This document shows, in pieces, positions 6,173-23,856 of a stretch of DNA of 39,499 bases (the first letter of the stretch is position 1; the number at the start of each line of letters is the position of its first letter). The stretch is from a virus (taxonomy: Duplodnaviria > Caudoviricetes). The DNA lies in the IMG/VR virus record IMGVR_UViG_3300030376_003158, positions 1 to 39,499 of that record. One strand, written 5' to 3'. The translations under genes were made by a program, and so were the position numbers. Below the pieces are notes generated by a model. The model had not been told where the DNA came from and made no database searches. It saw nothing but the letters and a program-made list of their open reading frames with translations.

Positions 6173-6352
6173 TTAACGGGGAATCTGTCTCGGCAATACT
6201 TCTTCTAGCTCTTCTATTCTTCTTTCGTGGTCTTTTAAAGTAGCAAACATACCACTAGTTTGTTGGCGTATGTCCCATATCTGCTTAGAAATCCATGCAC
6301 ACCACGGGCCTGCTACACCTAATCCTATGCTAAACGCTACTTCTAGTTCCAT
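6173..6352 (-). CDS. 59-aa membrane/coiled-coil protein, putative lysis accessory (holin-like); not in ORF track
   Basis: MELEVAFSIGLGVAGPWCAWISKQIW...LKDHERRIEELEE; fills the gap between amidase stop and exonuclease start. Confidence 0.6.
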   Translation of the reverse strand: MELEVAFSIGLGVAGPWCAWISKQIWDIRQQTSGMFATLKDHERRIEELEEVLPRQIPR

Positions 6353-6353
6353 G

Positions 6354-6947: not shown

Positions 6948-9370
6948 TCCTCAATTCTAGCATACGGTATCTCTAATACACGTATTTGCCTGCCTGCAAA
7001 TCGTTTTCTTTTCTCTTCAGCACCGTACACGTCTATCAAATAGTCTTTCAATCCACGTGTATTCGTGACAGGTAGTGTAAACGTGCCTGCTTTACGTATC
7101 TCTACTAGTAGTGAGTCGGCAGATATACATATCATATCGTTGTCGTCTTTCCATACACAACCCAGCCCTGACTCCATAGCCCATAGTACTGCGTCTAGTA
7201 TCGGGTTTTCTGATGCGGCTGTTGCCGCTTTCTCCCTAACCATTGACACGTCTATGTCAGGTATTTGTAAGGCAGGGTACGCCGACTCTACAAAGTCTCT
7301 TAGGTAACGCCAGCCCAAATCAATAAACCCCAAGTTGTAACGTTGCCTGTCATTCAATGACGTGTCAGAGTGTAGCTGTACTTTAGGGTCGTGATCGTTA
7401 GAGGCTATCCATGACAAATAAGAGTGTGCAAATCCTGCAGTATCTACTGACGATATAGTGTCAAGTGAACCTTTCTTTCGTTTAGTTAACCGCAGTAGTA
7501 TTGACCTGTCAGTTAAACTAGTCTCTATGACGCTATCTTCCCCTGAGACGACCACAGGCACGTCACTAGCGTACGATATAAGTCTCTGCTTGTTCTCGTA
7601 TGCTCCGCCTTTTTGGCTCCTCTGGCCCGTGTAGGCGTCTCTAAGCATCTGATCTAGTTGTTGCTTAGCATCTTGTCGTGCTCCAAACCTGTACTCATCA
7701 AACCAAATAGGGAATGCGTTACTAGCCCCAAAGAAACTAGCCACTGCGTGTGCTGTGGTGTTAGTCAAAGTAGCATTTATACTTGAACCACTAAAGACTT
7801 CTAGTACTTTCTCAACAAGTGTAGTCTTTCCCGTTCCTGAAGCACCAGACACTACTAGCGAAGGGAACTGCTTAAACAAAGGACGTATCGGCGCCAACGC
7901 TAGCCACGCTAAGAAGGGTGTCATCACATCACTAGAGTACATCTCCATCAAACCATGTAGTACTGCTGGTGTATTGACGGGGTTATTGACTACGCTTATC
8001 TTACCTTTAACATCTATGTCATTTAATGGTGGAACGTACGTCCATGAGTCTGTGCCTAAATGCCCGTCATGCCACACTATATCTCCGCTGTGGTATCCCA
8101 CCCTGCTGGTCATACGTCCTTCAGGGACTAGAAAGCTGTCGTGCTGTAGCAGTTGCAGTAGCTTATCATGATCTTGTGCACTCCCTGTCCACGCTACTTG
8201 ATTACTAATACACCAACGAACTAGGGAAGCACGTGAACTTAAAGCATCTGACGGTAGAACCACTACCTTATTTGTAGGCAGTAGCACCCCCTCAAAAGCT
8301 TCTTGACCTTCATCCCCTACTAAACGTTTGTTAAGTAGTAAACTCCAATTTGACACCGGCGTGTCATTTTCTCCTCGCACCTTAACATACTGATTAAGTC
8401 TTCTCACCAGACCTTCAGGTTTAGGCATCTGCACTAGCGCTCTATCAGGTAAAGACGCTACCTCTTTCGGAGACATACTAGCTATGTCGGCACCATCCGG
8501 CATAGGTATGTTGTATATCTTACAGTTATGTGCTGACAAATACCTGTGCCATTTGCTTAAAGCGTTTCTACCCGCTTCGTCTCCATCAAATGCCATGTAA
8601 ATTGTACGACCAGCCAGTGCCTCTGCGCCGAGCTTCTCAGGTTGGTGTCCTGCCCCTGCTACACCTAGAGCATGGAAGGAGGTAAGGTGTGCTTGAGCGG
8701 CCCAACAATCAGTCTCGCCCTCACAGAGCATCACTGGCTGGTCTTCGTGTGAGTCCCCCAACTTCCATAAACCATACAGCACCATGTTAGCTCCTTTAGC
8801 GTTTAGTTTGGTACCGTCAGGTTTACGAATTTTGTAACCCACAAGATCTTTTTCGTCCATGTAAGGAACTAGTACGTCATTACCGTCTGAAGATAACTGC
8901 CATTCCTTAACCAAATACTCTGGGTTAAGGTGAGCTATCGCAGGGTGAGAGTCTATCATTCTCCAGAGCATAGCGTTTACCGCATTGACAGCGTTGCTAC
9001 GTCCCCTAGCTAGGTAGTCGTGGGCTGACTCGTAGTCAAACTCTTTCTTAGCTTCTACTAAGGTAGGGTTCTCGTACCTGTCAACCTTCTGTTTGACGAC
9101 CAGCTCATAGGCTTTATCTATAGCTTCCTTGTCTGTCAATGACTCAAAGCGTTGCACTAAATCTATGCTACTGCCTTGTGTCCCTTCAGCAAAGTCGCCC
9201 CACCGCCAACCTCTTTCTGAGTCGTACCACACGTCAAATGACGGGTTGTTGTCAACTCTGAAAGGGTTGTGGTATTTAATCCTTGAGCTAGTTTGTTCTA
9301 CTGCATGGTGCCCGTACTGCTCCATCACGTATGGAACAGCTAACAGGTGTCTAAGATCTGATAACTCCAT
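6944..9370 (-). CDS. Primase-helicase (degenerate zinc-binding domain, TOPRIM, C-terminal P-loop helicase, DUF927/Cch-like)
   Basis: TOPRIM LCEGETD and FDGDEAG; Walker A GASGTGKTT; Walker B IWFDE. Confidence 0.85.
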   Translation of the reverse strand: MELSDLRHLLAVPYVMEQYGHHAVEQTSSRIKYHNPFRVDNNPSFDVWYDSERGWRWGDFAEGTQGSSIDLVQRFESLTDKEAIDKAYELVVKQKVDRYENPTLVEAKKEFDYESAHDYLARGRSNAVNAVNAMLWRMIDSHPAIAHLNPEYLVKEWQLSSDGNDVLVPYMDEKDLVGYKIRKPDGTKLNAKGANMVLYGLWKLGDSHEDQPVMLCEGETDCWAAQAHLTSFHALGVAGAGHQPEKLGAEALAGRTIYMAFDGDEAGRNALSKWHRYLSAHNCKIYNIPMPDGADIASMSPKEVASLPDRALVQMPKPEGLVRRLNQYVKVRGENDTPVSNWSLLLNKRLVGDEGQEAFEGVLLPTNKVVVLPSDALSSRASLVRWCISNQVAWTGSAQDHDKLLQLLQHDSFLVPEGRMTSRVGYHSGDIVWHDGHLGTDSWTYVPPLNDIDVKGKISVVNNPVNTPAVLHGLMEMYSSDVMTPFLAWLALAPIRPLFKQFPSLVVSGASGTGKTTLVEKVLEVFSGSSINATLTNTTAHAVASFFGASNAFPIWFDEYRFGARQDAKQQLDQMLRDAYTGQRSQKGGAYENKQRLISYASDVPVVVSGEDSVIETSLTDRSILLRLTKRKKGSLDTISSVDTAGFAHSYLSWIASNDHDPKVQLHSDTSLNDRQRYNLGFIDLGWRYLRDFVESAYPALQIPDIDVSMVREKAATAASENPILDAVLWAMESGLGCVWKDDNDMICISADSLLVEIRKAGTFTLPVTNTRGLKDYLIDVYGAEEKRKRFAGRQIRVLEIPYARIEE

Positions 9371-9864
9371 TAAAAATCAAAGTCATCTTCTTCTGTAGTT
9401 TCTTCAGTAACTACTACTGTGTTGCTAGAACCGGCAGATTCGTAGGTGTGATCTGCCCATAACTTTGCGCTATCGTTCTTATCTTGTTTGTATTTAGCTT
9501 TGACCTTGACTGCGTTGCCACTGTTCTTTGCAATTTCTGACAACTGTTCGTCAGAAAGTTCCTGATCTAGTACGTCAATCGTAAGACCGATAAGCTCTAA
9601 GTAATGAAAAGTCCTAGCATCAATCTTAGGATACTGTTGTGTTAGGTTCCAGTTGTCCCAGAACTTCTTACCTTGATCGTCACCTTCTGTGACAGTAAAC
9701 ATTACTCCCCATCTAGGAAGACCTGTCCTTGTAGTAGACGCTCTCACCAGTGAAGCGGAAACAGTGTAGGTTTCGCCCTCTACAGGCTCCCAATTATCAC
9801 CGCTAAAGGAAGAGATGTCTTCATTCTTTGATTGATCGTATAGATCTCTGAGTGATAAGCTCAT
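9370..9864 (-). CDS. Putative single-stranded DNA-binding protein (DUF669/gp2.5-like)
   Basis: Beta-rich body, acidic aromatic-ended tail EETTEEDDFDF, located between Sak4-like ATPase and primase. Confidence 0.7.
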   Translation of the reverse strand: MSLSLRDLYDQSKNEDISSFSGDNWEPVEGETYTVSASLVRASTTRTGLPRWGVMFTVTEGDDQGKKFWDNWNLTQQYPKIDARTFHYLELIGLTIDVLDQELSDEQLSEIAKNSGNAVKVKAKYKQDKNDSAKLWADHTYESAGSSNTVVVTEETTEEDDFDF

Positions 9865-10148
9865 TCTTTTTCTCCTATTGTTGTTGTATCCTTTAAGCCA
9901 AGTGCTTCTGCTAATTCTAAGTCACATACTATAGGCATTACGGCTATGTTATCCACGCCTTTTACCTGCAGTATTAACTCTAATGTGCATATCTCACCCA
10001 ACTCTGGGAAATTTACATTCTCGCCCCGATCTACGTATGCGCCTACCATAATAGCGGGCATCATAACCGGAGCGTTTTTTATATCTAAAGCCTCTTCTAA
10101 TTCCTTAGCGTCAACTTCAAGAACTTCATTGTCACTTGGCGTTTGCAT
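9861..10148 (-). CDS. Hypothetical acidic protein
   Basis: Overlaps both neighbours, with an SD-like GAAGGAGAG upstream. Confidence 0.65.
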   Translation of the reverse strand: MQTPSDNEVLEVDAKELEEALDIKNAPVMMPAIMVGAYVDRGENVNFPELGEICTLELILQVKGVDNIAVMPIVCDLELAEALGLKDTTTIGEKE

Positions 10149-10917
10149 TGCTCTCCTTCTTATTTACTACTGACAACATCTTACGTATGTCAGGGTTTAT
10201 AATCTCTGTACCATGCTCAAGTTGTAAACTGTGTAGCCTGCATTTAGCTACAGCTGTAGGTGTTGGTGTTATTTGTAGAACTCGTACTTCTTGTTGCTTC
10301 TGGTCCTGCGCTGTACGAAGATACCCCACCACATCGTAAAAGCCTGTAACAACTTTACGAGAGCCTCCTTCAAGTAGAGGCTTATGAGGGATAAGCTCGT
10401 CATCAGTACCGCATACTAGCACAACGTTTACACGTTTAGGTGAACTAGTCCTAGTTAAATCCCGTAGCTCTCTAAATAGAAGACCCATGTTGTTCTTCAA
10501 ACGCCCCCATGCTTGGTGCTGGAACACAGCGTTAGGGTCATACACGCCTTCGGGATTAGCCACTACTCTCTTTAGCTGGTCCTGTAGCTCATGCACGCTG
10601 TCTATTATCACGCTTTCAAACGGGTGGTCGCCTGACCGTAGTATGTTCATCACATCTTCTATTACGCCCCACTCGTTAACGTCCACAATAACTGACGTCT
10701 CCTTGTCAAGATCTTGTGGCACAGGGCTAGTCGGGTCCCACATAATGTGCTTACCCTCTGTGTCGTGATAGCCACCCTCTGTGTCCAGCACTAATCTAGG
10801 TGCAGGTGCGCTAGCTGAAAGCCAAGACTTACCTGCTCCCCACCAGCCGTGTATGAAGATGCTTATTCTTCTATAATCTTTATTAGCCACCAAAGGCTCC
10901 TTCCTTCTGATACTCAT
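10132..10917 (-). CDS. Sak4-like / AAA_24 ATPase (single-strand annealing recombinase)
   Basis: Walker A GWWGAGKS, LDTEGG, Walker B VIIDS, DVVGYL; adjacent to nuclease and SSB. Confidence 0.8.
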   Translation of the reverse strand: MSIRRKEPLVANKDYRRISIFIHGWWGAGKSWLSASAPAPRLVLDTEGGYHDTEGKHIMWDPTSPVPQDLDKETSVIVDVNEWGVIEDVMNILRSGDHPFESVIIDSVHELQDQLKRVVANPEGVYDPNAVFQHQAWGRLKNNMGLLFRELRDLTRTSSPKRVNVVLVCGTDDELIPHKPLLEGGSRKVVTGFYDVVGYLRTAQDQKQQEVRVLQITPTPTAVAKCRLHSLQLEHGTEIINPDIRKMLSVVNKKESNANAK

Positions 10918-11710
10918 TTACCAAGACGCTCTCGTAATCTTCGCCTTCGTCTACCATACCGCATACGTCTACGAAATCACAACCCCATGAACAAGTATTA
11001 TCTGGAACAGGGTAGAGTTGTGGGCTACGTACAGATGTAGAAGCCTCGTGAGCTTTGAAATGCTCTTGACACATGGTTGTCAGGTACTTCCTCCACCAGT
11101 CTAATGCTTCACTAGTGACACGTATACGGTTACGCTGTGTGTATGGGGGCTTGGCTCTGCCTGTACGTTTGTTGCGTTTAACTATGTTGTGCTCCATGTA
11201 GTCAACGGGGTAGTCGTTATCGTGTAGCACTACTGCGTACACCATCAACTGAAAGTCGTTATCAGAAGTGTTAAAGAAAGAGGCAGATGTCTTGTGGTCC
11301 TGCCCTATTAAAGGTCTACCTACTATAGCAGTGTCGTGGTATAAGTGGTCTACTTGACAAGACACACGGTAGAACGTATCCTCCGACACCTGTATTGGTG
11401 CTGTGAACATACGCTCTTCTACAAACACAGTCTCTTGACCGGCGTCCATGCCTGTCTCTTCCATCTCTGACACGTAGGTGTCAAACATAACTTGTGATGT
11501 CTGCACATCATCAGGGTTAAACTTAATGTTTTCGTCAGGCTCTACATCACCATAGTAGTCAGCCATTAAACCGTGAAAGTGTGTGCCCACACCACGTACG
11601 TCTGACTCTTGCGTTGGCTTAGACCAGCCCTCTGTGTACTGCAAGTATGATGCACGGCGACACCGTGTCCACCTCTTCAGTTCTGACTGTCTAACTATTA
11701 TTTCCTGCAT
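10883..11710 (-). CDS. PD-(D/E)XK (Cas4/RecB-like) exonuclease; start revised to 11710
   Basis: SELKRWTRCRR, GTHFH, QVD...QDHKT, QLMVY, C-terminal CSWGCDFVDVC; AAGGAG upstream of ATG 11710. Confidence 0.8.
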   Translation of the reverse strand: MQEIIVRQSELKRWTRCRRASYLQYTEGWSKPTQESDVRGVGTHFHGLMADYYGDVEPDENIKFNPDDVQTSQVMFDTYVSEMEETGMDAGQETVFVEERMFTAPIQVSEDTFYRVSCQVDHLYHDTAIVGRPLIGQDHKTSASFFNTSDNDFQLMVYAVVLHDNDYPVDYMEHNIVKRNKRTGRAKPPYTQRNRIRVTSEALDWWRKYLTTMCQEHFKAHEASTSVRSPQLYPVPDNTCSWGCDFVDVCGMVDEGEDYESVLVNEYQKEGAFGG

Positions 11711-11837
11711 GTACAGTTCTCCTTTTCTTGTAGTAATTGTTCCATGCTTCTCTGCATTCTTCACATGTGTCCATGCCACGTCTACGCTCTTGCTTGTATC
11801 CTTGCCATGTTCCATGCGCTATAGGTTTTATATTCAT
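11691..11837 (-). CDS. 48-aa HGT...CxxC zinc-finger microprotein; not in ORF track
   Basis: MNIKPIAHGTWQGYKQERRRGMDTCEECREAWNNYYKKRR; ATGA overlap with the SNF2 stop. Confidence 0.7.
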   Translation of the reverse strand: MNIKPIAHGTWQGYKQERRRGMDTCEECREAWNNYYKKRRTVHAGNNS

Positions 11838-15775: not shown

Positions 15776-15792
15776 GGGGAACGGTTCTTTCT

Positions 15793-16029
15793 TTAGTAAG
15801 TCATAACGCTTCGGTCTTCACGAGCTACGGGTGTAACTCTACGTATGATAGCAATTATACCACATAGAAATGCGACAGCCTGTCCACCATACTGCACCAC
15901 AATCGGGTACTGCATGATGACATCTTGTGTCAAGATATATTGCAGTACTGCTACGACTGTAGCTATCCACGTGACTGATGCTTTCGCAACTACACGGGAC
16001 TTATCAATCATCTTCATTGCTTGTTCCAT
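15793..16029 (-). CDS. Two-TM membrane protein, putative holin; start revised to 16029
   Basis: Two hydrophobic helices ending IIRRVTPV; GAGGAG upstream of ATG 16029. Confidence 0.55.
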   Translation of the reverse strand: MEQAMKMIDKSRVVAKASVTWIATVVAVLQYILTQDVIMQYPIVVQYGGQAVAFLCGIIAIIRRVTPVAREDRSVMTY

Positions 16030-16486
16030 TTGACTCCTCAATGTCAATTATTATTTCGTCATCACTTGCAAGTGCACGGGACTCAAGCTCTCTCTGTAGC
16101 TCCATAACCTTATCTAATTGGTTCCCGCCCACCGTTAGCTCGTGAGTGTGTTGGTGTTTTATTGTAACATCATTCTTCTGTTCCATGTGCTTGTACTGTA
16201 AGAATGTCCGCAACATGTTGTGCCTGTCCTTGATAGCAATAGAGTCATCACTAATCCACTCGTTTAACAAACGGAACTTAGGGTCTAATGCCTCTTGCTC
16301 AGCGGATACTACATCATCAAGGAACTCAGGATCACGCCGTAACTGACGCCATAACGTAGCACGATGGACGCCAGCCAGCTCAGCCGACTCTCCACGTGTG
16401 TGCCCCTGCCGTAACAAAGACAGCACTAGCTCACGCTTATGAGAGCCGTCTCCCAGAGACACGACACCTCTACCGTTGCCACTCAA
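16004..16486 (-). CDS. HTH protein resembling terminase small subunit; start revised to TTG 16486
   Basis: LLRQGHTRGESAELAGVHRATLWRQLRRDPEF..AEQEALD, then beta tail; AAGGAG before TTG. Confidence 0.6.
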   Translation of the reverse strand: MSGNGRGVVSLGDGSHKRELVLSLLRQGHTRGESAELAGVHRATLWRQLRRDPEFLDDVVSAEQEALDPKFRLLNEWISDDSIAIKDRHNMLRTFLQYKHMEQKNDVTIKHQHTHELTVGGNQLDKVMELQRELESRALASDDEIIIDIEESNGTSNEDD

Positions 16487-16739
16487 CAGCCTGCTCCTTT
16501 GTAGGTAGAGTTGACACATCACTGTCAATCCACAATCTGCGGTTAGCTCTGATCTGATACTTGTACATGTCTCCGAAGTACACAAGATCTAATGCACACT
16601 CGTCAATAACAGAACAACGTTGACACACTCCCAATGCTTTCTCGCATTTCTTAGGAGACATACGTTTATGCTCTGACGGTAAGAACATATCAGTTGATAG
16701 GCTCCTACATTCTGCTTTCTCTAGCCAGTCAGTCTTCAT
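16470..16739 (-). CDS. whiB: WhiB-like (Wbl) Fe-S transcription regulator, divergent; start revised to 16739
   Basis: W-x3-A-x-C...MF...A-x2-VC-x2-C-x-V-x3-C four-Cys pattern; GVWGG turn absent. Confidence 0.75.
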   Translation of the reverse strand: MKTDWLEKAECRSLSTDMFLPSEHKRMSPKKCEKALGVCQRCSVIDECALDLVYFGDMYKYQIRANRRLWIDSDVSTLPTKEQAVEWQR

Positions 16740-17118
16740 TGTTAATGACTCCAGTGTGAAAGATAAGAGAGCATAACCGGACAACGTGGTTCTCAATGTA
16801 GTCCATGTGTTCTTGTGACAATGGCTTGTCATCTTCTGTCTCCCAGTCCGGATAACTTTCCAGACTAAAGAACAATGACAAGATGCCAGCCATAAAGTAC
16901 CAAGCATTCTCGGCACTAGCTTTAGGGAATAAGTCCTTCCACTGCGCCTGTACTTGATCTAAGTAGGCAAGCATAGCGGGGTCTTCCGTATCAAACATAA
17001 CAAGGAACTCATTAAACGGACTGTCCTCTGACCATGCAAAGAACGGTGACGGTAAATTCGTTCCATCAAATATAAGTGGTAACTTCATACCATCTATATT
17101 ACCATACGCTTCAGTCAT
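16729..17118 (-). CDS. Hypothetical acidic protein
   Basis: Overlapping member of the leftward operon. Confidence 0.65.
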   Translation of the reverse strand: MTEAYGNIDGMKLPLIFDGTNLPSPFFAWSEDSPFNEFLVMFDTEDPAMLAYLDQVQAQWKDLFPKASAENAWYFMAGILSLFFSLESYPDWETEDDKPLSQEHMDYIENHVVRLCSLIFHTGVINNED

Positions 17119-17389
17119 CTATTTCCTGCTTCCAATTTGGGTACTTTTCTTCTAACTCTCTCATACGATCTTTGCAACAAGTCCATTCACTCCATAGGTA
17201 CAGTGCCCAATCGTCTAAGTTCTCTAGCAATTCTTGATTAGGCTCTGTCTCCTCACTCTCTAAGTTTTCCATTAGGCTTAGAAACTTCTCTATGCCTTGC
17301 AACATCTGCACATCGTGTGCAAAGGATTCGTATGTCCGCCTGTCACATGCTTCCTGTTCAGTCATCGTTGTTTGACACCTCGCTGTCAT
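17111..17389 (-). CDS. Hypothetical acidic helical protein
   Basis: Overlapping operon member; start uncertain. Confidence 0.6.
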   Translation of the reverse strand: MTARCQTTMTEQEACDRRTYESFAHDVQMLQGIEKFLSLMENLESEETEPNQELLENLDDWALYLWSEWTCCKDRMRELEEKYPNWKQEIDD

Positions 17390-17588
17390 CTTCTCGGTAA
17401 TCAGTTATGTTCCAGTTGTTTTGATTGAGTAAGTCTTTTACTTCTTGTAAGGTTTCAAAGTAATACGTGTGCTCACTGTCACCAGCTGTAATCTCAAGCA
17501 CTGCGTAGTCTTTTCGGATACGTACCTCAACGCCTCTTGCGTCCTCGTCCGCAAATCTTACGTGTGTGGATATTCTTGTAGTAGTCAT
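17358..17588 (-). CDS. Hypothetical protein
   Basis: AGGAGG SD and ATGA coupling. Confidence 0.65.
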   Translation of the reverse strand: MTTTRISTHVRFADEDARGVEVRIRKDYAVLEITAGDSEHTYYFETLQEVKDLLNQNNWNITDYREDDSEVSNNDD

Positions 17589-17719
17589 TCTTCCTCCTGC
17601 TCTTCTTCGTTAGTTGACTCTTCCGTGTCAACTCCTAGTAACTTCAGCTGTGCCTCAGTCATCTGTTTGAATAAGTTAAATAGTGTTTCACCCTCTGGTG
17701 TCATTCTTCCTCCTGCTCT
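17584..17719. repeat. 20-bp direct repeat flanking the microprotein gene
   Basis: GTCATTCTTCCTCCTGCTCT at 17584-17603 and 17700-17719. Confidence 0.9.
17585..17704 (-). CDS. 39-aa acidic microprotein; not in ORF track
   Basis: MTPEGETLFNLFKQMTEAQLKLLGVDTEESTNEEEQEEE; AGGAGG SD, ATGA overlaps at both ends. Confidence 0.6.
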   Translation of the reverse strand: MTPEGETLFNLFKQMTEAQLKLLGVDTEESTNEEEQEEE

Positions 17720-17889
17720 AATGGGTCGGCGTCTATTGCATGTGCCAGCCCTTCGCTGTGTTGTAATAGAAAGCCCTTGTCGTCTACGTACTGTATCAGC
17801 TCGCTAATAGCTAAGCCAACCTGTCTATCGTCAATAGCTTCCTCTGTCATTATAATTTGCAATACAGTTACTTTACTGCTCAAGGTCAT
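17701..17889 (-). CDS. Hypothetical acidic protein
   Basis: GAGGAG SD; overlapping operon member. Confidence 0.6.
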   Translation of the reverse strand: MTLSSKVTVLQIIMTEEAIDDRQVGLAISELIQYVDDKGFLLQHSEGLAHAIDADPLEQEEE

Positions 17890-18091
17890 ACTCCTCTACT
17901 ATGATGTTCTTAGCCATTAAACTGACGCCGAACCTGTGGTTATCCCCTATTGCATTGATAGCATCTCGGACAATGACTTCTAGCGGTGGGCAATAGTCTT
18001 CATCGTAGTGCTTGTACTCATCGTCAAGGTAATCCTCATCAAGTGACAGTGTGATGTCAAGTTTTACATTATTTATTTTTCCGGTTGTCAT
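17873..18091 (-). CDS. Hypothetical acidic protein; start revised to 18091
   Basis: TAATG stop/start coupling with the upstream gene. Confidence 0.6.
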   Translation of the reverse strand: MTTGKINNVKLDITLSLDEDYLDDEYKHYDEDYCPPLEVIVRDAINAIGDNHRFGVSLMAKNIIVEEYDLEQ

Positions 18092-18315
18092 TATGGACAC
18101 CATCCTTCTAGTATTTGATCGCACTCTGGTTCGCCCAAGTGAGTCTGAACCTTTATAGCGTCATCGGCTAACTTATCGTACGCAGACTGGACCATGCCAT
18201 TCCAAGTGTCATCTTGGTAGTCAAACTCAAGAATATCGTCATCGTCTACTTCCCAATCAATGAGGACACTAGTGCACCAGCCATCCCCGTAAAGCCTTAC
18301 TGTAAATTGTTGCAT
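18091..18315 (-). CDS. Hypothetical highly acidic protein
   Basis: GAGG SD, D/E-rich, tightly packed. Confidence 0.6.
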   Translation of the reverse strand: MQQFTVRLYGDGWCTSVLIDWEVDDDDILEFDYQDDTWNGMVQSAYDKLADDAIKVQTHLGEPECDQILEGWCP

Positions 18316-18317
18316 TA

Positions 18318-18626
18318 TTATTTTACCTCTCCTGTTATATGTTTAACATGCTCTGGTCGGATACAGCGTAGCTCGCCTTTCATCGTGGGTGTGTCAAACT
18401 TAGATGACTGCCAGTACGTGTGTATCTCATAAGCTCCTGTGTCTACGTGCTGTACGATGTACTGCACCTTGTGTATTCCACGCTCTCCTTTAACCTTGAT
18501 GATGCGTCCGGCTTCAAGTGGGTAACGTTTGCCATCTAATGACAGCGACCCCACCCTATGCCAGAGCTTCTGATAATTTGACAGCGGTCTGTCAATCTTT
18601 CTCTTTGATCTACGGGTTAGCTTCAA
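18318..18626 (-). CDS. Basic beta-rich hypothetical protein (possible SH3/KOW-like barrel)
   Basis: GRIIKVKGERGIHKVQYIV...LRCIRPEHVK; AGGAGAG SD. Confidence 0.6.
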   Translation of the reverse strand: MKLTRRSKRKIDRPLSNYQKLWHRVGSLSLDGKRYPLEAGRIIKVKGERGIHKVQYIVQHVDTGAYEIHTYWQSSKFDTPTMKGELRCIRPEHVKHITGEVK

Positions 18627-18780
18627 TGTTCTCTCCTATCACTAAGCGGAACGGGTAGTTGGTTGTCAACAGATTAAACACTGCGAGATTACGAAAGCAG
18701 AACTGTTGACACTCTGCCAGTGAACCAGTAAAGATAGCATGCTCTCCATCTATCCATGTTGGGTGTACTTCGTAACTCAT
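18610..18780 (-). CDS. 56-aa hypothetical protein; start revised to 18780, possibly leaderless
   Basis: TGC-TATACT extended -10 lies 7 nt before ATG 18780; the upstream part of the tracked ORF is hairpin/repeat DNA. Confidence 0.5.
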   Translation of the reverse strand: MSYEVHPTWIDGEHAIFTGSLAECQQFCFRNLAVFNLLTTNYPFRLVIGENIEANP

Positions 18781-18903
18781 ACTGTATAGTATAGCATATA
18801 CTTTTTCACGTGCCGTCTGTGTCACCCCTGTGACGGGGTTTGTGACGGGCATGTATCCCTCTATATCCCAATAAACTAAAGGAATAATAAAAGATTCTTT
18901 ACT

Positions 18904-18999
18904 ACTGAGACAACTGTGACAGATACCCCTACCCCTTATAGCAAAGGAGGGGGAGATAAATTTTAAGTAGGTAGGGGCACCTGTCACAGTCGTCTCAGT
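18904..18999 (-). repeat. 30-bp inverted repeat with 36-nt loop
   Basis: Arms 18904-18933 and 18970-18999 match 27/30; all three mismatches become G-U pairs on the minus strand. Confidence 0.9.
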
Positions 19000-19004
19000 T
19001 GACA

Positions 19005-19193
19005 TCACGCTGTCAACTCCTGAACAACATGTACATCTGGCGTTTGTTCTGTTAGCTCTGGCTCAAAGGGTAGGCAGTACTTTTCGGGGTCGTGTTCTAC
19101 CATGTAGACTGCCCGCTCTGCGTTCTCTGCCTCAACCTCTGCCACCTCGTCTGAACAGAAATTGCGTGTGTAATAAACTTCAAACTTTGGCAT
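19005..19193 (-). CDS. Hypothetical acidic protein
   Basis: MPKFEVYYT...VEVEAENAERA pattern typical of small phage early proteins. Confidence 0.6.
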   Translation of the reverse strand: MPKFEVYYTRNFCSDEVAEVEAENAERAVYMVEHDPEKYCLPFEPELTEQTPDVHVVQELTA

Positions 19194-19196
19194 GTT

Positions 19197-19580
19197 CTAG
19201 CTCTTCTCAATTCTTGACATGTGCTCGTCAATTACTTGCACTATAACTTGCTCGCCTAAGATGAATACGTACATGTTAACGAGTCTTTCCGGCTCTTCCA
19301 TGTAGGTAAATGTTTCACCATAGTTGTCTAGCTCATAGTCTTTTACAGTTTGTATTACATCAAATACATTCTCTGCAGATTCTAGCCATTCAATAGCTTT
19401 GTATCTTCCGATAATGTAGTAATCGGTGTTAAACAGTTCGTGATGTGCCTCACTGTAGTCACCGTCTTCGGGATTAAAGAATGATAGAGAACCGTCTTGC
19501 GGGTCTGCGTAATCAAGTATGCGTTCTTCTGCATACGCTCTAACCTCTTCTGTCTTGTTGTACTCAAAGGTACTAGTCAT
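19197..19580 (-). CDS. Putative Ocr-like antirestriction (DNA-mimic) protein
   Basis: Acidic helical 127 aa with HHELFNTDYYIIG..A.EWL and PERLVNMYVFILGE, recalled from phage antirestriction-annotated proteins. Confidence 0.55.
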   Translation of the reverse strand: MTSTFEYNKTEEVRAYAEERILDYADPQDGSLSFFNPEDGDYSEAHHELFNTDYYIIGRYKAIEWLESAENVFDVIQTVKDYELDNYGETFTYMEEPERLVNMYVFILGEQVIVQVIDEHMSRIEKS

Positions 19581-20542
19581 GCTATCTCCTGTTCATGGTA
19601 TGTAAATTTGTTTTCATTAATTAGTGACACAAGCGTGTCAACTTCTTGTGGGAACTCAACGTGATCATCATCTAATGCCATGAGATAATCATTGGTTGCC
19701 AGTAAATCTTCGTCCTTGTCAGTAGCTACACCGGCATAGTCTAGTAAGCCAACCATAACTCCGAGTGTGAGTTCAGACCAGACCCGAACATGTGGCACTA
19801 AGAAATCCACTTGGTCCTCGTACTTCTTAGGACCGAATACTCGTATCTGGTATTCGTTGCTCTCTGGTGTCTTCGGTGGGAAGACAGTAAAGACTTTAGG
19901 CTGTGTTCTTGGGGTAGAACGAGGGGCAACGGGGCGACCCTTGTTAATTGGTAAATCTGACATGAGCATGTCAAGTTCTTTCTTATATAGTTCCCGTGTT
20001 TTATCTGTGATGCAAACATTAGAGAACCCGATTGTTACATCTGGTACTAACTTGAGGACTTCCTCGCCTTGCTTATTAATAGTCATTCGGTAGTTCTGCG
20101 GGTCGTCATAGGTTAGCGATAACTCTTCTGCTATATGCACGAACTTCTTATTGTGGTAGCGGTTCTGTCTTGTCGTCTCCTTGATGCCTCGCACGGCACA
20201 TAGAGCGTGTACTGCCTCATGTAGCACCGTCTGCAGTACTTGAAGAGGACCACGAGAGAGGCAGTCACCGCTAATATTGATCTCATGAACGGCGTCCTCT
20301 GGTGAACAGATAGTGCCGTTATCAAATGCACCTCGTAAGAAATGACCAAGAACAATAGAATTGCCCTTGCGTCCGTTCTGCTTGATGGTGAATGAAACGT
20401 TAGCGGGAAGATCGGGTGTCAACTCTCTTGCACGTTGGTACACACGCTCTAAACACTGCACCGCCTCACTTCCATACGTTGCATTAACTGTTCTTATGTA
20501 TTTGTACTGTGTTGAATTATCCGGTGTTATTGTTAGTAACAT
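19577..20542 (-). CDS. SprT-like zinc metalloprotease domain protein
   Basis: VLHEAVH (HExxH) followed by RYHNKKF third-ligand motif; AAGGAG SD. Confidence 0.75.
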   Translation of the reverse strand: MLLTITPDNSTQYKYIRTVNATYGSEAVQCLERVYQRARELTPDLPANVSFTIKQNGRKGNSIVLGHFLRGAFDNGTICSPEDAVHEINISGDCLSRGPLQVLQTVLHEAVHALCAVRGIKETTRQNRYHNKKFVHIAEELSLTYDDPQNYRMTINKQGEEVLKLVPDVTIGFSNVCITDKTRELYKKELDMLMSDLPINKGRPVAPRSTPRTQPKVFTVFPPKTPESNEYQIRVFGPKKYEDQVDFLVPHVRVWSELTLGVMVGLLDYAGVATDKDEDLLATNDYLMALDDDHVEFPQEVDTLVSLINENKFTYHEQEIA

Positions 20543-20579
20543 GGCAGGCTCTCCTTTGCTTGGGGAATCGGTACTACGT

Positions 20580-20604
20580 ACACTAGCACAGATGTATACC
20601 GTTT
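20580..20604 (-). promoter_or_regulatory. Leftward early promoter (extended -10)
   Basis: AAACGGTATACATCTGTGCTAGTGT, colinear with 21701-21725. Confidence 0.6.
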
Positions 20605-20693
20605 TAGTTTATTTAACGATAAACAGCGAAATTAACGGTGCCTACAACGATTATCGCTGTTGCATCACCGCTACCGCAACGCCGATTCAAATA

Positions 20694-20729
20694 TGACACG
20701 CCCGTGTCAAACATGACATTCGGGTGTCA
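20694..20729. promoter_or_regulatory. Tandem TGACA-N6-TGTCA palindromes
   Basis: 20694-20709 and 20714-20729; further copies at 29239 and 36866. Confidence 0.6.
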
Positions 20730-20762
20730 TTTATTTGAGGAACGCCGACGCCACCGAAAGTT

Positions 20763-20777
20763 CGCCACCGCAGCGCT
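20763..20777 (+). repeat. 15-mer cassette-boundary repeat, copy 1
   Basis: CGCCACCGCAGCGCT. Confidence 0.85.
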
Positions 20778-20803
20778 TGGACCTTTACTTTTTTAGTAAA
20801 TAT

Positions 20804-20838
20804 AAAAACCCCCACCCTCCGGAGAGGGCAGGGGCTTT
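20804..20838 (-). terminator. Intrinsic terminator, leftward
   Basis: Minus strand GCCCCTGCCCTC-TCCG-GAGGGTGGGGGT followed by TTTT, just after the 20844 stop. Confidence 0.75.
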
Positions 20839-20843
20839 GTTTG

Positions 20844-20987
20844 TTATGTGTCGTAACGATCACAGCTATTGCATTTGTGTTGCATATCGTATATAGGCCA
20901 GCCATCATCATCGTGTGATGGACCGTCTTCCATATCGTTAGTCCATTCTAATTCACAGATTTGGCATCGCTTGAATTTGCTAGTCAT
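20844..20987 (-). CDS. 47-aa CxxC...CxxC zinc-ribbon microprotein; not in ORF track
   Basis: MTSKFKRCQICELEW...HKCNSCDRYDT; SD AAAGGAGGT. Confidence 0.7.
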   Translation of the reverse strand: MTSKFKRCQICELEWTNDMEDGPSHDDDGWPIYDMQHKCNSCDRYDT

Positions 20988-21033
20988 AGTTACCTCCTTT
21001 CGTTAGCTGGGGGGCATTGCACCCCCCTGCTGG

Positions 21034-21312
21034 CTACCTTAACGGTTCCAGTGCTAGTAACACCTGCATTGATGGTATCTGTCTAGACGGGTGCCTAGGG
21101 TCATTTTCCATCTCATCTATCTCCGCAATAAATGCGTCATAGAATCTGCGGTAGTCAAACCTGTCGTTGTCCGCATAGCACATGTCGGCTATGGATTCAA
21201 CAACGGGCACTATGTTGGCTAGCTGTTTCGCTAGAGCCTTGGAGCCGTAAGGCTTCGTTGGCTTGGCTAGTGCTTCGGCTAGTGCTTGATAGTGTTTCCT
21301 GCTCATTCCCAT
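21034..21312 (-). CDS. Hypothetical phage early protein
   Basis: MSRKHYQALA...DNDRFDYRRFYDA, a pattern common in small phage proteins; AAGGAGG SD. Confidence 0.75.
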   Translation of the reverse strand: MGMSRKHYQALAEALAKPTKPYGSKALAKQLANIVPVVESIADMCYADNDRFDYRRFYDAFIAEIDEMENDPRHPSRQIPSMQVLLALEPLR

Positions 21313-21342
21313 AGTCCCTCCTTCCTTAGGGCTAGTGGTTCT

Positions 21343-21386
21343 TCCCCCATTCTGTTGCCAACTCTAGGGGATTGAGTCCGAGTCTT
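21343..21386 (-). ncRNA. Candidate pseudoknot RNA motif, copy A
   Basis: AAGACUCGG-ACUC-AAUCCCCUA-GAGU-UGGCAACAGAA-U-GGGGGA. Confidence 0.6.
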
Positions 21387-21429
21387 GCGGAGCCTTTACA
21401 CTTGCGCTACTCCCTCACTCTTGCATTGA

Positions 21430-21669
21430 TTAGCCCTGTTGTAGTATGTCGGCTAGCATTCGTAATATTTCTACTGCGACTGCTTTAGCGTCTACCACTT
21501 CATGACGGTCATCAAGTTGGATTGCTACTTCGTCCTTGATGAGATCCGTAAGACCATCAATGTCGTCAACGTCAATATCAAAGTATGCTTCGGCAGTATT
21601 AACAGTTACATCCGTAACTTCTACTTCTACTTCTACTTCAACACAATCGTCAAGATTGATGTAAGGCAT
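21430..21669 (-). CDS. Highly acidic hypothetical protein
   Basis: GAGGAGG SD; VEVEVEV tract; first gene after promoter 21701-21725. Confidence 0.7.
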   Translation of the reverse strand: MPYINLDDCVEVEVEVEVTDVTVNTAEAYFDIDVDDIDGLTDLIKDEVAIQLDDRHEVVDAKAVAVEILRMLADILQQG

Positions 21670-21700
21670 ATATTTTTCCTCCTCTCTTTGCTATATACCG

Positions 21701-21725
21701 ATTGTAGCACATATATATACCGTTT
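21701..21725 (-). promoter_or_regulatory. Leftward early promoter (extended -10 TGC-TACAAT)
   Basis: AAACGGTATATATATGTGCTACAAT. Confidence 0.7.
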
Positions 21726-21728
21726 ACC

Positions 21729-21748
21729 TGTGGATAACCTGTGGATTT
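21729..21748. promoter_or_regulatory. Tandem DnaA boxes
   Basis: TGTGGATAA (perfect TTATCCACA) at 21729-21737 and TGTGGATTT at 21740-21748. Confidence 0.55.
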
Positions 21749-21861
21749 CGTGTTTTTTAGAATTTCTTTTGTCTGCAATTCAAGGGCTTATTTAATGACA
21801 CACATTAAATCAACTTGCTGTTTGTCTACCAAATGGTAGAGAGATAGTGCCCCAACATGTC

Positions 21862-21876
21862 CGCCGCCGCAGCGCT
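21862..21876 (+). repeat. 15-mer cassette-boundary repeat, copy 2
   Basis: CGCCGCCGCAGCGCT. Confidence 0.85.
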
Positions 21877-21994
21877 GAGACTTCTCTAATACATAGACCT
21901 TGTATTTTGCTGTATTTGTGTTACATTTGTGTTACAATCCCACCGTTAAAATCGCTGTTCTTGATGCGATTATCGTCTTTTTTGTGGTAGGTGG

Positions 21995-22022
21995 TTGACT
22001 CTCTATATATATGGGCTACATT
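21995..22022 (+). promoter_or_regulatory. Rightward sigma70-type promoter
   Basis: TTGACT-N16-TACATT upstream of SD AAGGAGG and ATG 22059. Confidence 0.5.
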
Positions 22023-22058
22023 GAGAACTCAACCTATTAACTGCGAAGGAGGCAGATA

Positions 22059-22466
22059 ATGCTAGATATATACAACCATCAAGTGGCTGAGGGGGTGTAT
22101 TCAGAGTATGAGCGTGTGCCGTCATTTATGACAGAGGAGCACAGTGGAGGCGCCCTAATAGAGATGGGTGACTTGTGCATAGCCCACTACTGTGATTGGG
22201 AACCCTACTCTCTGTGCTACTACACGGGCAGTATGAGAGACACCCATTACAACCCATCACATAGGTGGTATTACTTCAAGACAATTCAAGGCGGTTACAC
22301 CTCATGGAACCCGCACAGAATACTATCAATGAAAAGAGTGATGGCTAGACCCGACTATCACGTGCACGAGGCTATCTCAGAGCGTGCCTCATGGGTCCTG
22401 CCTAAGTCTGGCAGGTTCAGCTTAGCCAATGCTGAAGCGTGGGTACACGAGTACCTTACAAGCTAA
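22059..22466 (+). CDS. Hypothetical Tyr/His/Trp-rich protein, lone rightward gene in the early region
   Basis: AAGGAGG SD, own promoter and terminator. Confidence 0.75.
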   Translation: MLDIYNHQVAEGVYSEYERVPSFMTEEHSGGALIEMGDLCIAHYCDWEPYSLCYYTGSMRDTHYNPSHRWYYFKTIQGGYTSWNPHRILSMKRVMARPDYHVHEAISERASWVLPKSGRFSLANAEAWVHEYLTS

Positions 22467-22470
22467 CTAC

Positions 22471-22516
22471 AAGCGTCTCCCGTCTACTACATGGTAGGCG
22501 GGGGCGCTTCTTTTTT
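22471..22516 (+). terminator. Intrinsic terminator, rightward
   Basis: AAGCGTCTCCCGTCTAC...GTAGGCGGGGGCGCTT stem then CTTTTTT. Confidence 0.8.
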
Positions 22517-22531
22517 CGCCGCCGCAGCGCT
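22517..22531 (+). repeat. 15-mer cassette-boundary repeat, copy 3
   Basis: CGCCGCCGCAGCGCT, extended by CAGATC as in copy 4. Confidence 0.85.
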
Positions 22532-22565
22532 CAGATCCCCCTATTCTTGGGCTAAAAGAAAAAGT

Positions 22566-22613
22566 CCTTTCTCCCCTTTTTCTGTTGCCAAGGTGGGGAA
22601 CCTCCGAGTCTTA
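22566..22613 (-). ncRNA. Candidate pseudoknot RNA motif, copy B
   Basis: AAGACUCGG-AGGU-UCCCC-ACCU-UGGCAACAGAA-AAA-GGGGA. Confidence 0.6.
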
Positions 22614-22632
22614 GTCAGTATCCTCTAGGTTG

Positions 22633-22884
22633 TCAGTCTAGAGGGGCTGGCCCGTAGCCAACAAACTTACTTTCGTAAGCTTGATGACCAGCCACTTCGT
22701 TGTCACAGTAGTGACCCCAGAAGCAACTGTAGGTAACGCCGTCTTCGCTGGCTATGTGCCAAGCTACAAACGGATCGTTAGTGCTAAAGTGTGCTAGCAC
22801 CTTGCCGATGAACTTTTGTTCACCTGCCCTACCGTAACCAATTTCACAACGAATTACCGTTGCGCCATTTGATAGTGTAATCAT
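22633..22884 (-). CDS. Hypothetical protein; start revised to 22884
   Basis: MITLSNGATVI...PFVAW...CFWGHY; SD GGAAGGAG. Confidence 0.7.
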   Translation of the reverse strand: MITLSNGATVIRCEIGYGRAGEQKFIGKVLAHFSTNDPFVAWHIASEDGVTYSCFWGHYCDNEVAGHQAYESKFVGYGPAPLD

Positions 22885-23093
22885 GCGCTGTCTCTCCTTC
22901 CTACCACTGGCTTGAGCTATGTGGTGTCCTCTTTGCATGCCCCTATTATATACCCTTTAGCCCAACTGATCGCCGTCAATTTCGCTGTTCTCACCGTCAA
23001 TTTCGTTGTACCCCTACATATAAGGCTATATATGGGTAGATCTGAGATATCTTTAATCTGGTCAAGGTGACTAGTGGCAAGCCCAAAATACCA

Positions 23094-23108
23094 CGCCACC
23101 GCAGCGCT
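23094..23108 (+). repeat. 15-mer cassette-boundary repeat, copy 4
   Basis: CGCCACCGCAGCGCT followed by CAGATC. Confidence 0.85.
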
Positions 23109-23130
23109 CAGATCTCTCAGTGTTTAGGAC

Positions 23131-23160
23131 AAGAAAACCCCACCCTTTCGGGTGAGGCTT
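23131..23160 (-). terminator. Intrinsic terminator, leftward
   Basis: Minus strand GCCTCACCC-GAAA-GGGTGGGGT then TTTCTT. Confidence 0.8.
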
Positions 23161-23166
23161 CCTGTC

Positions 23167-23292
23167 TTAGTGCACGTGTCTGGCACCGTCTGGGATTATT
23201 CCCAGTGCTAGCCCTAGTGCGGCTACGGATGCTAGCGTCATAAACACTAGCCACACTGTGTCATTGTTCATTATGTCTATTAGCTTCTTCAT
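23167..23292 (-). CDS. 41-aa single-TM microprotein; not in ORF track
   Basis: MKKLIDIMNNDTVWLVFMTLASVAALGLALGIIPDGARHVH; SD AAGGAAG; terminator follows. Confidence 0.6.
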   Translation of the reverse strand: MKKLIDIMNNDTVWLVFMTLASVAALGLALGIIPDGARHVH

Positions 23293-23301
23293 ATACTCAC
23301 T

Positions 23302-23351
23302 TCCTTTCTCCCCCTGTTCTGTTGCCAAGTCGGGGGCGACTCCGAGTCTTA
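23302..23351 (-). ncRNA. Candidate pseudoknot RNA motif, copy C
   Basis: AAGACUCGG-AGUC-GCCCCC-GACU-UGGCAACAGAA-CA-GGGGG. Confidence 0.6.
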
Positions 23352-23371
23352 CTCATTTGCCAGCTCTGGAC

Positions 23372-23575
23372 CTACCTCTTGAAGGTCATGCCCAGCACTT
23401 GTTGCCCGTAGGCTACAAGATACTGTTGCGTGACATCCACTAGATCCTCATCACTGAGGGACGAACCGTTTCGTTCCTCAAATGCTTCAGAGCCAAGCAT
23501 ACGGAACACAGTGTTCGGATGTGCTTCTTGCTTAAGAGCCATCTTTAGCACTGCATTTAGTTGCTGTCTTGTCAT
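23372..23575 (-). CDS. Hypothetical protein, first gene of the leftward arm; start revised to 23575
   Basis: SD AAGGAGGT before ATG 23575. Confidence 0.7.
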   Translation of the reverse strand: MTRQQLNAVLKMALKQEAHPNTVFRMLGSEAFEERNGSSLSDEDLVDVTQQYLVAYGQQVLGMTFKR

Positions 23576-23598
23576 CTGATTACCTCCTTCCAATATCT

Positions 23599-23627
23599 AA
23601 CGTAGATCATGAATGTATACCTGTCAA
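23599..23627 (-). promoter_or_regulatory. Leftward sigma70-type promoter
   Basis: TTGACA-N17-TACGTT with GGTATA in the spacer. Confidence 0.65.
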
Positions 23628-23856
23628 ATTGGAGAGAGATTTTTTTAGGTCTCTGACCTGCACAAATAGAATTTTTTGAAATTAATTTTTGAAATTGTTT
23701 TTTATATATAGAGGCGATTGTTTATTTAATGACCATTGAGTTAATTAATGACATACATTAATACGGGGGGCACCCCCCTTGGTGGGGGTGGCTATATTAT
23801 TACCCGTCTTTTTCTGGAAAATGCAAACACCTAAAGGTGCCGATATACCGTTTGAA

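What the first reader, a model, noticed from the sequence alone, without database searches (positions are those of the whole stretch)
20763..23630. Early region built as an array of self-contained expression cassettes delimited by a directional GC-rich 15-mer
Seen: CGCCRCCGCAGCGCT at 20763, 21862, 22517 and 23094, all intergenic and same orientation, plus a degenerate CGCTACCGCAACGCC at 20669. Each interval holds its own promoter, 1-3 small genes and a terminator or U-tract; copies 1, 3 and 4 lie about 22-27 nt beyond a leftward U-tract. Inference: either recombination joints for swapping host-takeover cassettes (no site-specific recombinase seen, but a Sak4-like ATPase, nuclease and SSB are encoded) or polar protein-binding roadblocks analogous to mycobacteriophage L5 stoperators.
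Basis: partly seen in the sequence, partly recalled or inferred. Interest (0 to 1): 0.85.

Follow-up and report, generated by a model that had tools for sequence, protein, structure and literature searches.

The report
Shuffled early-gene cassettes in marine phage
A short GC-rich box marks every gene-cassette boundary in the early region of an uncultured marine phage, and related phages gain, lose and reorder cassettes at that box, likely by short-homology recombination much as is known for T4-type phages.

Summary
Observation confirmed: four exact copies plus one degenerate copy, same strand, intergenic (chance 0.59); a genome-wide matrix scan finds no other good copy. The window is a complete 39.5-kb phage with a WhiB gene and no integrase hit. 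Eight related arrays carry the box at cassette junctions (30 copies in 9 arrays, 7 positions invariant) and differ in cassette content and order. Filled and empty sites are seen; paired copies share only 15-21 identical bases. Alignment edges are 3.1-fold enriched at the box (25 of 148), but ribosome-binding sites (2.4-fold), an RNA pseudoknot and terminators are joints too. No copy-to-copy joint appeared in contigs of 8 runs. Best reading: a PeSL-like shuffling array whose invariant core is likely a protein-binding site doubling as a recombination seed, not an L5-type stoperator; 'host takeover' is unsupported. Side findings: a conserved palindrome TGACA-N6-TGTCA (35 copies, none in the array) and an RNA pseudoknot without an Rfam match, shared with 19 unrelated virus sequences.

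The parts
20763..20782 (+). Box copy 1 (15-mer plus NNGAY extension), left border of the array
21862..21881 (+). Box copy 2, between a leftward promoter region and the rightward promoter region
22517..22536 (+). Box copy 3, between two convergent transcript ends
23094..23113 (+). Box copy 4
20669..20683 (+). Degenerate box left of the paired TGACA palindromes (7.5 bits; function doubtful)
20694..20729 (.). Two tandem TGACA-N6-TGTCA palindromes 33 and 53 nt left of box 1; last members of a 35-copy genome-wide family
20805..20838 (-). Terminator hairpin with U-tract ending cassette 1
20844..20987 (-). Small gene f4 (47 aa), moves to another cassette in L003, L046, L048
21034..21312 (-). Small gene f2 (92 aa), in 7 of 7 arrays that cover it; function unknown
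21336..21394 (-). Pseudoknot RNA motif copy A, between f1 and f2
21430..21669 (-). Small acidic gene f1 (79 aa)
21701..21709 (-). Extended -10-like element (TG-N-TACAAT) for cassette 1; promoter inferred
   Evidence: sequence
21792..21808 (.). Palindrome TTAATG-N5-CATTAA, 53 nt left of box 2
21826..21839 (.). Palindrome CTACCA-N2-TGGTAG, 22 nt left of box 2
21995..22022 (+). Sigma-70-like promoter (TTGACT-16-TACATT) of the rightward cassette; inferred
22059..22466 (+). Rightward gene f8 (135 aa), replaced by unrelated f9 between the same ribosome-binding site and terminator in relatives
22471..22516 (+). Rightward terminator hairpin and U-tract abutting box 3; its stem holds a CTACCA-type palindrome
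22566..22620 (-). Pseudoknot RNA motif copy B, followed by a U-tract
22633..22884 (-). Small gene f0 (83 aa); its 577-bp cassette is absent at this place in L003, L046, L048, L049
23122..23166 (-). Terminator hairpin ending cassette 4
23167..23292 (-). Small hydrophobic gene f5 (41 aa)
23304..23359 (-). Pseudoknot RNA motif copy C; a gene-swap joint (f3 vs f6)
23372..23575 (-). Small gene f3 (67 aa, predicted four-helix fold, no informative match)
23599..23627 (-). Sigma-70-like promoter TTGACA-17-TACGTT with A/T-rich upstream tract; inferred
   Evidence: sequence
23745..23761 (.). Palindrome TTAATG-N5-CATTAA at the right border; no box follows it
9370..11815 (-). SSB-like (E 6e-5), Sak4-like annealing protein (E 8e-27) and PD-(D/E)XK exonuclease (E 4e-22): candidate recombination machinery

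Best explanation
The box is the invariant core of a composite junction (palindromes, box, spacer, terminator) that separates small gene cassettes, and related phages gain, lose and reorder whole cassettes at it, likely by short-homology recombination. Inferred steps: (1) the box is kept because a phage or host protein likely binds it together with the palindromes to its left, probably for transcription control; (2) being the only identical stretch common to all junctions, it likely seeds single-strand annealing by the phage's Sak4-like protein, SSB and exonuclease; (3) the same machinery likely swaps single genes and promoters at other repeated bits (ribosome-binding sites, terminators, the pseudoknot RNA). 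Shown: conservation, position at every junction type, filled and empty sites, recombined flanks. Not shown: any protein binding, the recombination enzyme, circles, or what the genes do.
For: Box at cassette junctions in 9 of 9 arrays from the window and close relatives, 30 copies, 7 of 15 positions invariant, no conservation directly left of it. Gene order and content differ among arrays. Filled/empty sites: window 22517-23093 is missing between fused flanks in L003, L046, L048, L049; the rightward cassette is missing in L055 and L002; L055 has an extra cassette ahead of the one that L003 and L046 carry first. Among 20 boxes of the 6 closest arrays, 9 left-flank and 10 right-flank types occur in 15 combinations. 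Eight tested pairs of copies share only 15-21 identical bases. 25 of 148 merged alignment edges lie within 15 nt of a box, which covers 5.4% of the length (3.1-fold, the highest class). The box stands at terminator/promoter, promoter/promoter and terminator/terminator junctions alike. The patch +6 to +22 is 40% mismatched among 4 orthologous junctions against 1-6% beyond it and 4-16% at fourfold sites of terL, as repeated patchy exchange would give. Sak4, exonuclease, SSB present; no integrase hit. Sak4 anneals single strands with its cognate SSB (PMC5928155, abstract).
Against: 123 of 148 edges are not at the box; ribosome-binding sites are nearly as enriched (32 edges, 2.4-fold). Edges are not independent and an alignment that includes a shared repeat stops at the repeat's edge by construction, so the nominal P values (4e-7 against all positions, 0.004 against intergenic ones) overstate the case. 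Some junctions share about 80 nt (box plus terminator), so the crossover is not confined there. L055 has a hairpin-plus-promoter-like junction without a box (about 4810-4850). No joint between two copies in contigs of 8 runs (contigs drop rare variants). 15-21 nt is short for homologous recombination (own knowledge). No binding protein identified.
Confidence: 0.6

Rival explanations
1. The box with its phased palindromes is a dedicated site-specific recombination or nicking site (att-like), acted on by an unrecognised phage protein or a host recombinase, so that cassettes enter and leave as circles.
For: Crossovers confined to 15-21 nt; 28 of 30 boxes have one of four palindromes within 5-59 nt to the left, clustering near 20, 30 and 52 nt (no shuffle control run); strict polarity; hypervariable patch just right of the box; lineage-specific box variants (L053/L004 A at 11, L005 A at 6).
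Against: No recombinase hit among 52 window translations scanned in PHROGs (35, 17; 35 in Pfam); swaps at unrelated repeats show general short-homology recombination is active; the palindromes differ from junction to junction; no circles or joints seen.
Confidence: 0.13
2. The box is only a regulatory protein-binding site; breakpoints near it reflect selection for intact promoter-gene-terminator units after recombination of any kind, plus the way alignments end at repeats.
For: Only 17% of edges are at the box; edges are non-independent; sequence strongly conserved down to about 75% genome identity.
Against: Fused flanks meet inside a 15-21-nt shared stretch in several arrays, where 100-200 nt of intergenic room would be tolerated; the rightward cassette is flanked by direct copies where arrays without it have one.
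Confidence: 0.15
3. L5-type stoperator or termination roadblock: a repressor bound at the box blocks leftward RNA polymerase just past each terminator.
For: Asymmetric 15-mer, one orientation, 22-26 nt beyond three leftward U-tracts.
Against: 4 sites in 3 kb, none elsewhere, against 20-30 genome-wide sites in cluster A phages (PMC6550527, passage); spacing to the terminator ranges about 25-55 nt in relatives; copy 2 has no terminator on its right; no repressor or integrase hit. The genome-wide palindrome TGACA-N6-TGTCA is the better operator candidate.
Confidence: 0.06
4. The box is a DNA-metabolism signal (replication priming, Chi-like hotspot, packaging or entry stop), and cassette shuffling is a by-product.
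For: Polar G+C-rich box followed by an A/T-rich patch and preceded by a hairpin-forming palindrome; a DnaA-box-like 9-mer (motif recalled) at 21729-21737 and in L055, L004; array lies next to the packaging genes.
Against: Copy number follows cassette number (1-5 per array) rather than being fixed; genome ends could not be located (contigs run through); no resemblance tested.
Confidence: 0.06

Closest known systems
PeSL (promoter-early stem-loop) cassettes of T4-type phages (Arbiol et al. 2010, PMC2839356, parts 2-3 of 6 read; Comeau et al. 2014, PMC4122927, part 1 of 3 read)
   Same: Repeated intergenic units joining a terminator and an early promoter in a region of variable orphan genes; close relatives differ by insertions, deletions and replacements bounded by these units; filled and empty sites.
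   Different: PeSL homology is spread over about 100 bp and centres on a sigma-70 promoter; here promoters and terminators differ between junctions and the common core is a 15-20-nt polar box that is neither. 3-4 junctions in a 39.5-kb phage with a P22-like portal, against about 50 in T4-type myoviruses. Mini-circles are shown for PeSLs, not here.
Stoperators of cluster A mycobacteriophages L5/Bxb1 (PMC6550527 and PMC9283540, passages)
   Same: Short asymmetric intergenic site in one orientation in a phage with a WhiB gene and a leftward early arm.
   Different: 4 sites in 3 kb, not 20-30 genome-wide; no repressor, integrase or parABS hit; sites coincide with cassette exchange.
Integron cassette arrays (own knowledge)
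   Same: Row of swappable small-gene cassettes, one repeated site per cassette.
   Different: No integrase hit; site is a direct-repeat box, not an attC hairpin; cassettes carry their own promoter-like elements.
Self-cleaving ribozymes between phage genes (hammerhead incl. permuted forms, PMC10085705 sections 11 part 1 and 17; theta ribozymes, PMC10879173 search listing only), for the pseudoknot side motif
   Same: Small structured RNA just after stop codons, in some viruses near tRNA, tmRNA, pistol or twister-sister genes.
   Different: No Rfam match; lacks CUGANGA; simple hairpin plus H-type pseudoknot; cleavage untested.

Membership tests
PeSL cassettes | Junction holds both a stem-loop terminator and an early promoter | tested here: inconclusive
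   Terminators strong in 3 of 4 intervals; promoters only promoter-like, no excess in the consensus scan
PeSL cassettes | Repeat is a conserved sigma-70 promoter unit of about 100 bp | tested here: not met
   Paired copies share 15-21 identical bases; promoter regions differ
PeSL cassettes | Located in a hyperplastic region of orphan genes | tested here: met
   Variable content in 9 arrays; no family hit at E<0.001
PeSL cassettes | Indels between close relatives bounded by the repeats | tested here: met
PeSL cassettes | Excised mini-circles | tested here: inconclusive
   No joint in contigs of 8 runs; contigs drop rare variants
PeSL cassettes | Promoter and terminator activity in vivo | not testable with these tools
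   Uncultured phage; no RNA holder listed
PeSL cassettes | T4-type phage | tested here: not met
   39.5 kb, P22-like portal, family A polymerase
L5-type stoperator | Asymmetric site of about 13-14 bp | tested here: met
   Asymmetric 15-mer
L5-type stoperator | 20-30 sites throughout the genome | tested here: not met
   4 strong sites, all within 20763-23113
L5-type stoperator | [quoted passage not shown] | tested here: inconclusive
   Constant relative to the leftward arm, not reversed around the one rightward gene
L5-type stoperator | Cognate immunity repressor in a temperate phage | tested here: inconclusive
   No repressor, integrase or parABS hit; orphan proteins remain unassigned
Integron | Integron integrase and attC-type hairpin sites | tested here: not met
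   No tyrosine recombinase hit; site is a direct-repeat box
Hammerhead ribozyme (pseudoknot side motif) | CUGANGA and GAAA blocks with stems I-III | tested here: not met
   Leader reads YGANYA; no Rfam hit
Self-cleaving ribozyme of any class (pseudoknot side motif) | Site-specific self-cleavage | not testable with these tools
   Needs in vitro transcription

The most novel reading that the evidence does not exclude
The box with its helically spaced palindromes is a dedicated, polar recombination site used by an as yet unrecognised recombinase, making this an integrase-free, integron-like cassette system in a small lytic-looking phage, in which promoter-bearing cassettes move as circles.
Probability: 0.13. 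Interest if true: 0.75.

Novelty: new variant of a known kind. Interest (0 to 1): 0.42.

Why it matters
It extends PeSL-type cassette shuffling from large T4-like phages to a small uncultured marine phage, likely of an actinobacterium, and shows exchange on only 15-21 shared bases at a box that is neither promoter nor terminator. That makes a clean test of whether phage annealing proteins alone explain modular evolution or whether dedicated joints exist. The principle itself is known and recurs often in this scan, so the gain is moderate. The pseudoknot RNA, shared with many unrelated viruses and without an Rfam match, is cheap to test for self-cleavage and may be the more novel lead.

Tried and rejected
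Exact 21-nt box scan of viral contigs gave 1 hit, L001, an unrelated 58% GC contig with the match inside a gene: chance. Box-plus-terminator scan gave only 2 contigs already held. Duplicates dropped before counting arrays: L045 (identical to the window), L047 and L052 (as L046), L049 and L062 (as L003), L051 (L005), L006 and L054 (L053), L050 (as L004), L021/22/33/34/66/67/68 (re-fetches); L007, L044, L063 do not cover the array; L061 covers only box 1. Distant relatives L008, L010, L011, L056-L060 have no box in a matching place (one 14-bit hit inside L010's late genes) and 8 regions tested show no analogous repeat. No close cultured phage (terL at most 34% identity); f0 has no match in the phage collection and 7 homologues in the protein search. 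Host not found: genome scan gave two contigs at about 50% capsid identity in unrelated-looking bins; amidase search gave no host name. No RNA holder listed. No tRNA in the window. Atlas and fold searches for f3 and f2 gave nothing usable (f3 model pLDDT 90, best Z 6.7; f2 model pLDDT 58, not searched). f7 of relatives has only weak HNH/Lar-like hits (E 0.012-0.027). First pair count for the RNA motif was one column out of register and was redone. Text search for four motif strings found no paper holding two of them; supplements of PMC10690425 gave no hit in the files searched, but files 1, 2 and 4 were not searched, so the motif may be among those candidates. Earlier findings by place and by sequence: nothing.
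Full report
Setting. The window is a whole circularly assembled phage genome (28-nt end overlap; one contig), 44% GC. A leftward arm (5420-23575) holds replication genes and small orphans; a rightward arm from 23896 holds terminase, P22-like portal and capsid. A WhiB gene (16470-16916) points to an actinobacterial host; that is inference (WhiB is called actinobacterium-specific in PMC7771536, passage). Two marine metagenome runs of one study not flagged as a possible source hold near-identical sequence (X7, X9). No cultured phage is close. No integrase or repressor hit was found among 52 window translations in PHROGs or 35 in Pfam; the open frame 38304-39497 was not scanned.

Observation. The four copies and the degenerate one are where stated; 5 matches against 0.59 expected. 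A matrix scan of the whole genome finds no other strong copy. Intervals hold 3, 1, 1 and 2 genes, one of them rightward. Terminator hairpins are strong in three intervals and absent in the third, which ends in a U-tract after an RNA pseudoknot. Promoter-like elements precede each leading gene but the consensus scan shows no excess over shuffles.

Relatives. Scans with terL, the 95-aa gene next to the array and the SprT-like gene gave 12, 17 and 3 loci. After dropping duplicates and loci that miss the region (listed under Tried and rejected), 8 distinct arrays remain besides the window, two of them partial (L002, L004). With | for a box: window |f4 f2 f1|f8+|f0|f5 f3; L003 |f7 f2 f1|f4|f8+|f5 f6; L046 |f7 f2 f1|f4 f0|f9+|f5 f6; L048 |f2 f1|f4 f0|f9+|f5 f6; L055 |f0|f7 f2 f1|f17 f16 f3; L005 |f2 f1|f0|f3'|f20 f3; L053 |f2 f1||f0||f24 f23 f3 with doubled boxes. 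Across 30 boxes, 7 of 15 positions are invariant, positions +3 and +4 are G and A in 25 and 26 of 30, and nothing is conserved directly to the left. Variants are lineage-specific. More distant phages lack the box.

Breakpoints. The 577-bp cassette between copies 3 and 4 is missing in L003, L046, L048 and L049, where the left flank of copy 3 meets the right flank of copy 4; those two window copies share 21 nt with one mismatch. The rightward cassette is missing in L055 and L002, which show one box where the window shows a flanked cassette. L055 carries an extra f0 cassette in front, but there the shared stretch is about 80 nt. Among 20 boxes of the six closest arrays, 9 left and 10 right flank types form 15 combinations (types include adjoining gene sequence, so some splitting reflects gene swaps). 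Of 148 merged alignment edges, 25 lie at a box (3.1-fold over length share), 32 at ribosome-binding sites (2.4-fold), 10 at the pseudoknot RNA (1.8), 18 at stop/terminator edges (1.5), 33 in other intergenic DNA (0.9), 30 in genes (0.4). These edges are not independent and stop at shared repeats by construction. So the box is the cassette-level joint in a finer mosaic: f8 is replaced by f9 between the same ribosome-binding site and terminator, also seen in contigs of runs X10, X13, X15 and X17, and promoter blocks are duplicated within L003. No copy-to-copy joint was seen in contigs of 8 runs; such contigs drop rare forms.

What the box is. It stands between terminator and promoter, between two promoter regions (copy 2) and between two transcript ends (copy 3), so it is part of neither signal. 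28 of 30 boxes have one of four palindromes within 5-59 nt to the left, mostly near 20, 30 or 52 nt (no control run), which suggests a protein-bound complex. Just right of it, +6 to +22 is 40% mismatched among four orthologous junctions against 1-6% beyond and 4-16% at fourfold sites of terL; the junction facing the rightward promoter lacks this variability. I infer that the box is kept as a binding site and serves as the seed for annealing by the Sak4-like protein with its SSB and exonuclease (Sak4 activity from PMC5928155, abstract). Confidence 0.6. A dedicated site-specific system (0.13), a purely regulatory site with passive breakpoints (0.15), a stoperator (0.06) and a replication or packaging signal (0.06) remain.

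Comparison. It works like the PeSLs of T4-type phages (PMC2839356, parts 2-3 of 6; PMC4122927, part 1 of 3) but is not a member: the shared unit is not a 100-bp promoter repeat and circles are not shown. It fails the site-number feature of L5 stoperators (PMC6550527, passage). Other windows of this scan report similar arrays (AI notes, leads only). 'Host takeover' has no support: array proteins have no family hit at E<0.001, and Atlas and fold searches were uninformative.

Side finding 1. TGAC-N8-GTCA occurs 35 times (0.6 expected; other spacings 0-5), 29 in the leftward arm, 6 in the rightward arm, 0 in the array, with a tandem pair at its left border. In 7 relatives the arms differ at 4% of positions against 20% in spacers and 16% in flanks; G001 has 29. 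This is the better candidate for a genome-wide operator; its protein is unknown.

Side finding 2. Three copies of an RNA motif (YGANYA-AGACUCGGAG, hairpin, CUUGGCAACAGAA, tail) lie in the array. An exact pattern found 31 stretches in viral contigs; 19 distinct sequences are from unrelated viruses of 31-58% GC. In 13 of 19 the hairpin loop pairs with the tail over at least 5 Watson-Crick pairs (tail-shuffled mean 1.3, maximum 7 in 5000); the stems pair in 87.5% of cells with 33 double changes, 0 of 500 shuffles as high (the conserved letters were fixed by the search pattern). In 12 of the 17 that have an upstream frame it starts within 32 nt of a stop codon. No Rfam match in the window, in 14 loci at gathering score or in one locus at E up to 5. 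Two text searches found no description, but the main supplements of PMC10690425 could not be searched.

Verdict. Real, well supported as a shuffling array, a new variant of a known kind. Interest 0.42.

Noticed in passing
window 1386-36866 (35 sites; list): Genome-wide palindrome TGACA-N6-TGTCA, mostly inside genes, densest in the leftward arm near the array, absent from the array, arms conserved in relatives: operator- or stoperator-like system of unknown protein.
   Followed up: partly
window 21336-21394, 22566-22620, 23304-23359 (minus); L014-L043: RNA motif with co-varying hairpin and H-type pseudoknot just after stop codons, shared with 19 unrelated virus sequences, no Rfam match; candidate ribozyme or processing element. 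Its GGCAACAGAA stretch recalls an RNase P loop (from memory, untested).
   Followed up: partly
window 21729-21737; L055 2767 and 4007; L004 907: DnaA-box-like 9-mers (motif recalled) just upstream of cassette promoters, often with a second imperfect copy.
   Followed up: no
window 21792-21808, 23745-23761, 21826-21839; L003 3122-3139: Three further palindromes confined to array junctions (TTAATG-N5-CATTAA, CTACCA-N2-TGGTAG, TAATAA-N6-TTATTA), spaced about 20-53 nt left of the box.
   Followed up: partly
window 21002-21030; L003 1803, L046 2032, L055 3258: Hairpin with a GGUGCAAU loop before a ribosome-binding site, shared by four arrays in front of different genes (f4 or f7).
   Followed up: no
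L053 901/920 and 1436/1455: Tandemly doubled boxes 19 nt apart, and a duplicated palindrome block at about 800-870.
   Followed up: no
L003 about 2481-2657 and 2941-3117: About 177-bp promoter-leader block duplicated in front of two different genes.
   Followed up: no
window 16004-16585: Small-terminase-like HTH gene sits in the leftward arm, 7.6 kb from the large terminase and on the other strand.
   Followed up: no
window 18904-18999: 30-nt inverted repeat (90% complementary, 36-nt loop) inside an orphan gene.
   Followed up: no
window 38304-39499 and 13-5442: One very long frame likely runs across the assembly junction (about 2,200 aa), candidate internal virion protein.
   Followed up: no
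L055 5284-7285: The 95-aa gene before terL is duplicated around an extra tail-fibre-like gene, so the late side of the border is also plastic.
   Followed up: no
L029, L037, L039: Viruses that carry the pseudoknot motif also carry pistol and twister-sister ribozymes (L029), a permuted tmRNA directly upstream (L037) or a GOLLD RNA (L039).
   Followed up: no
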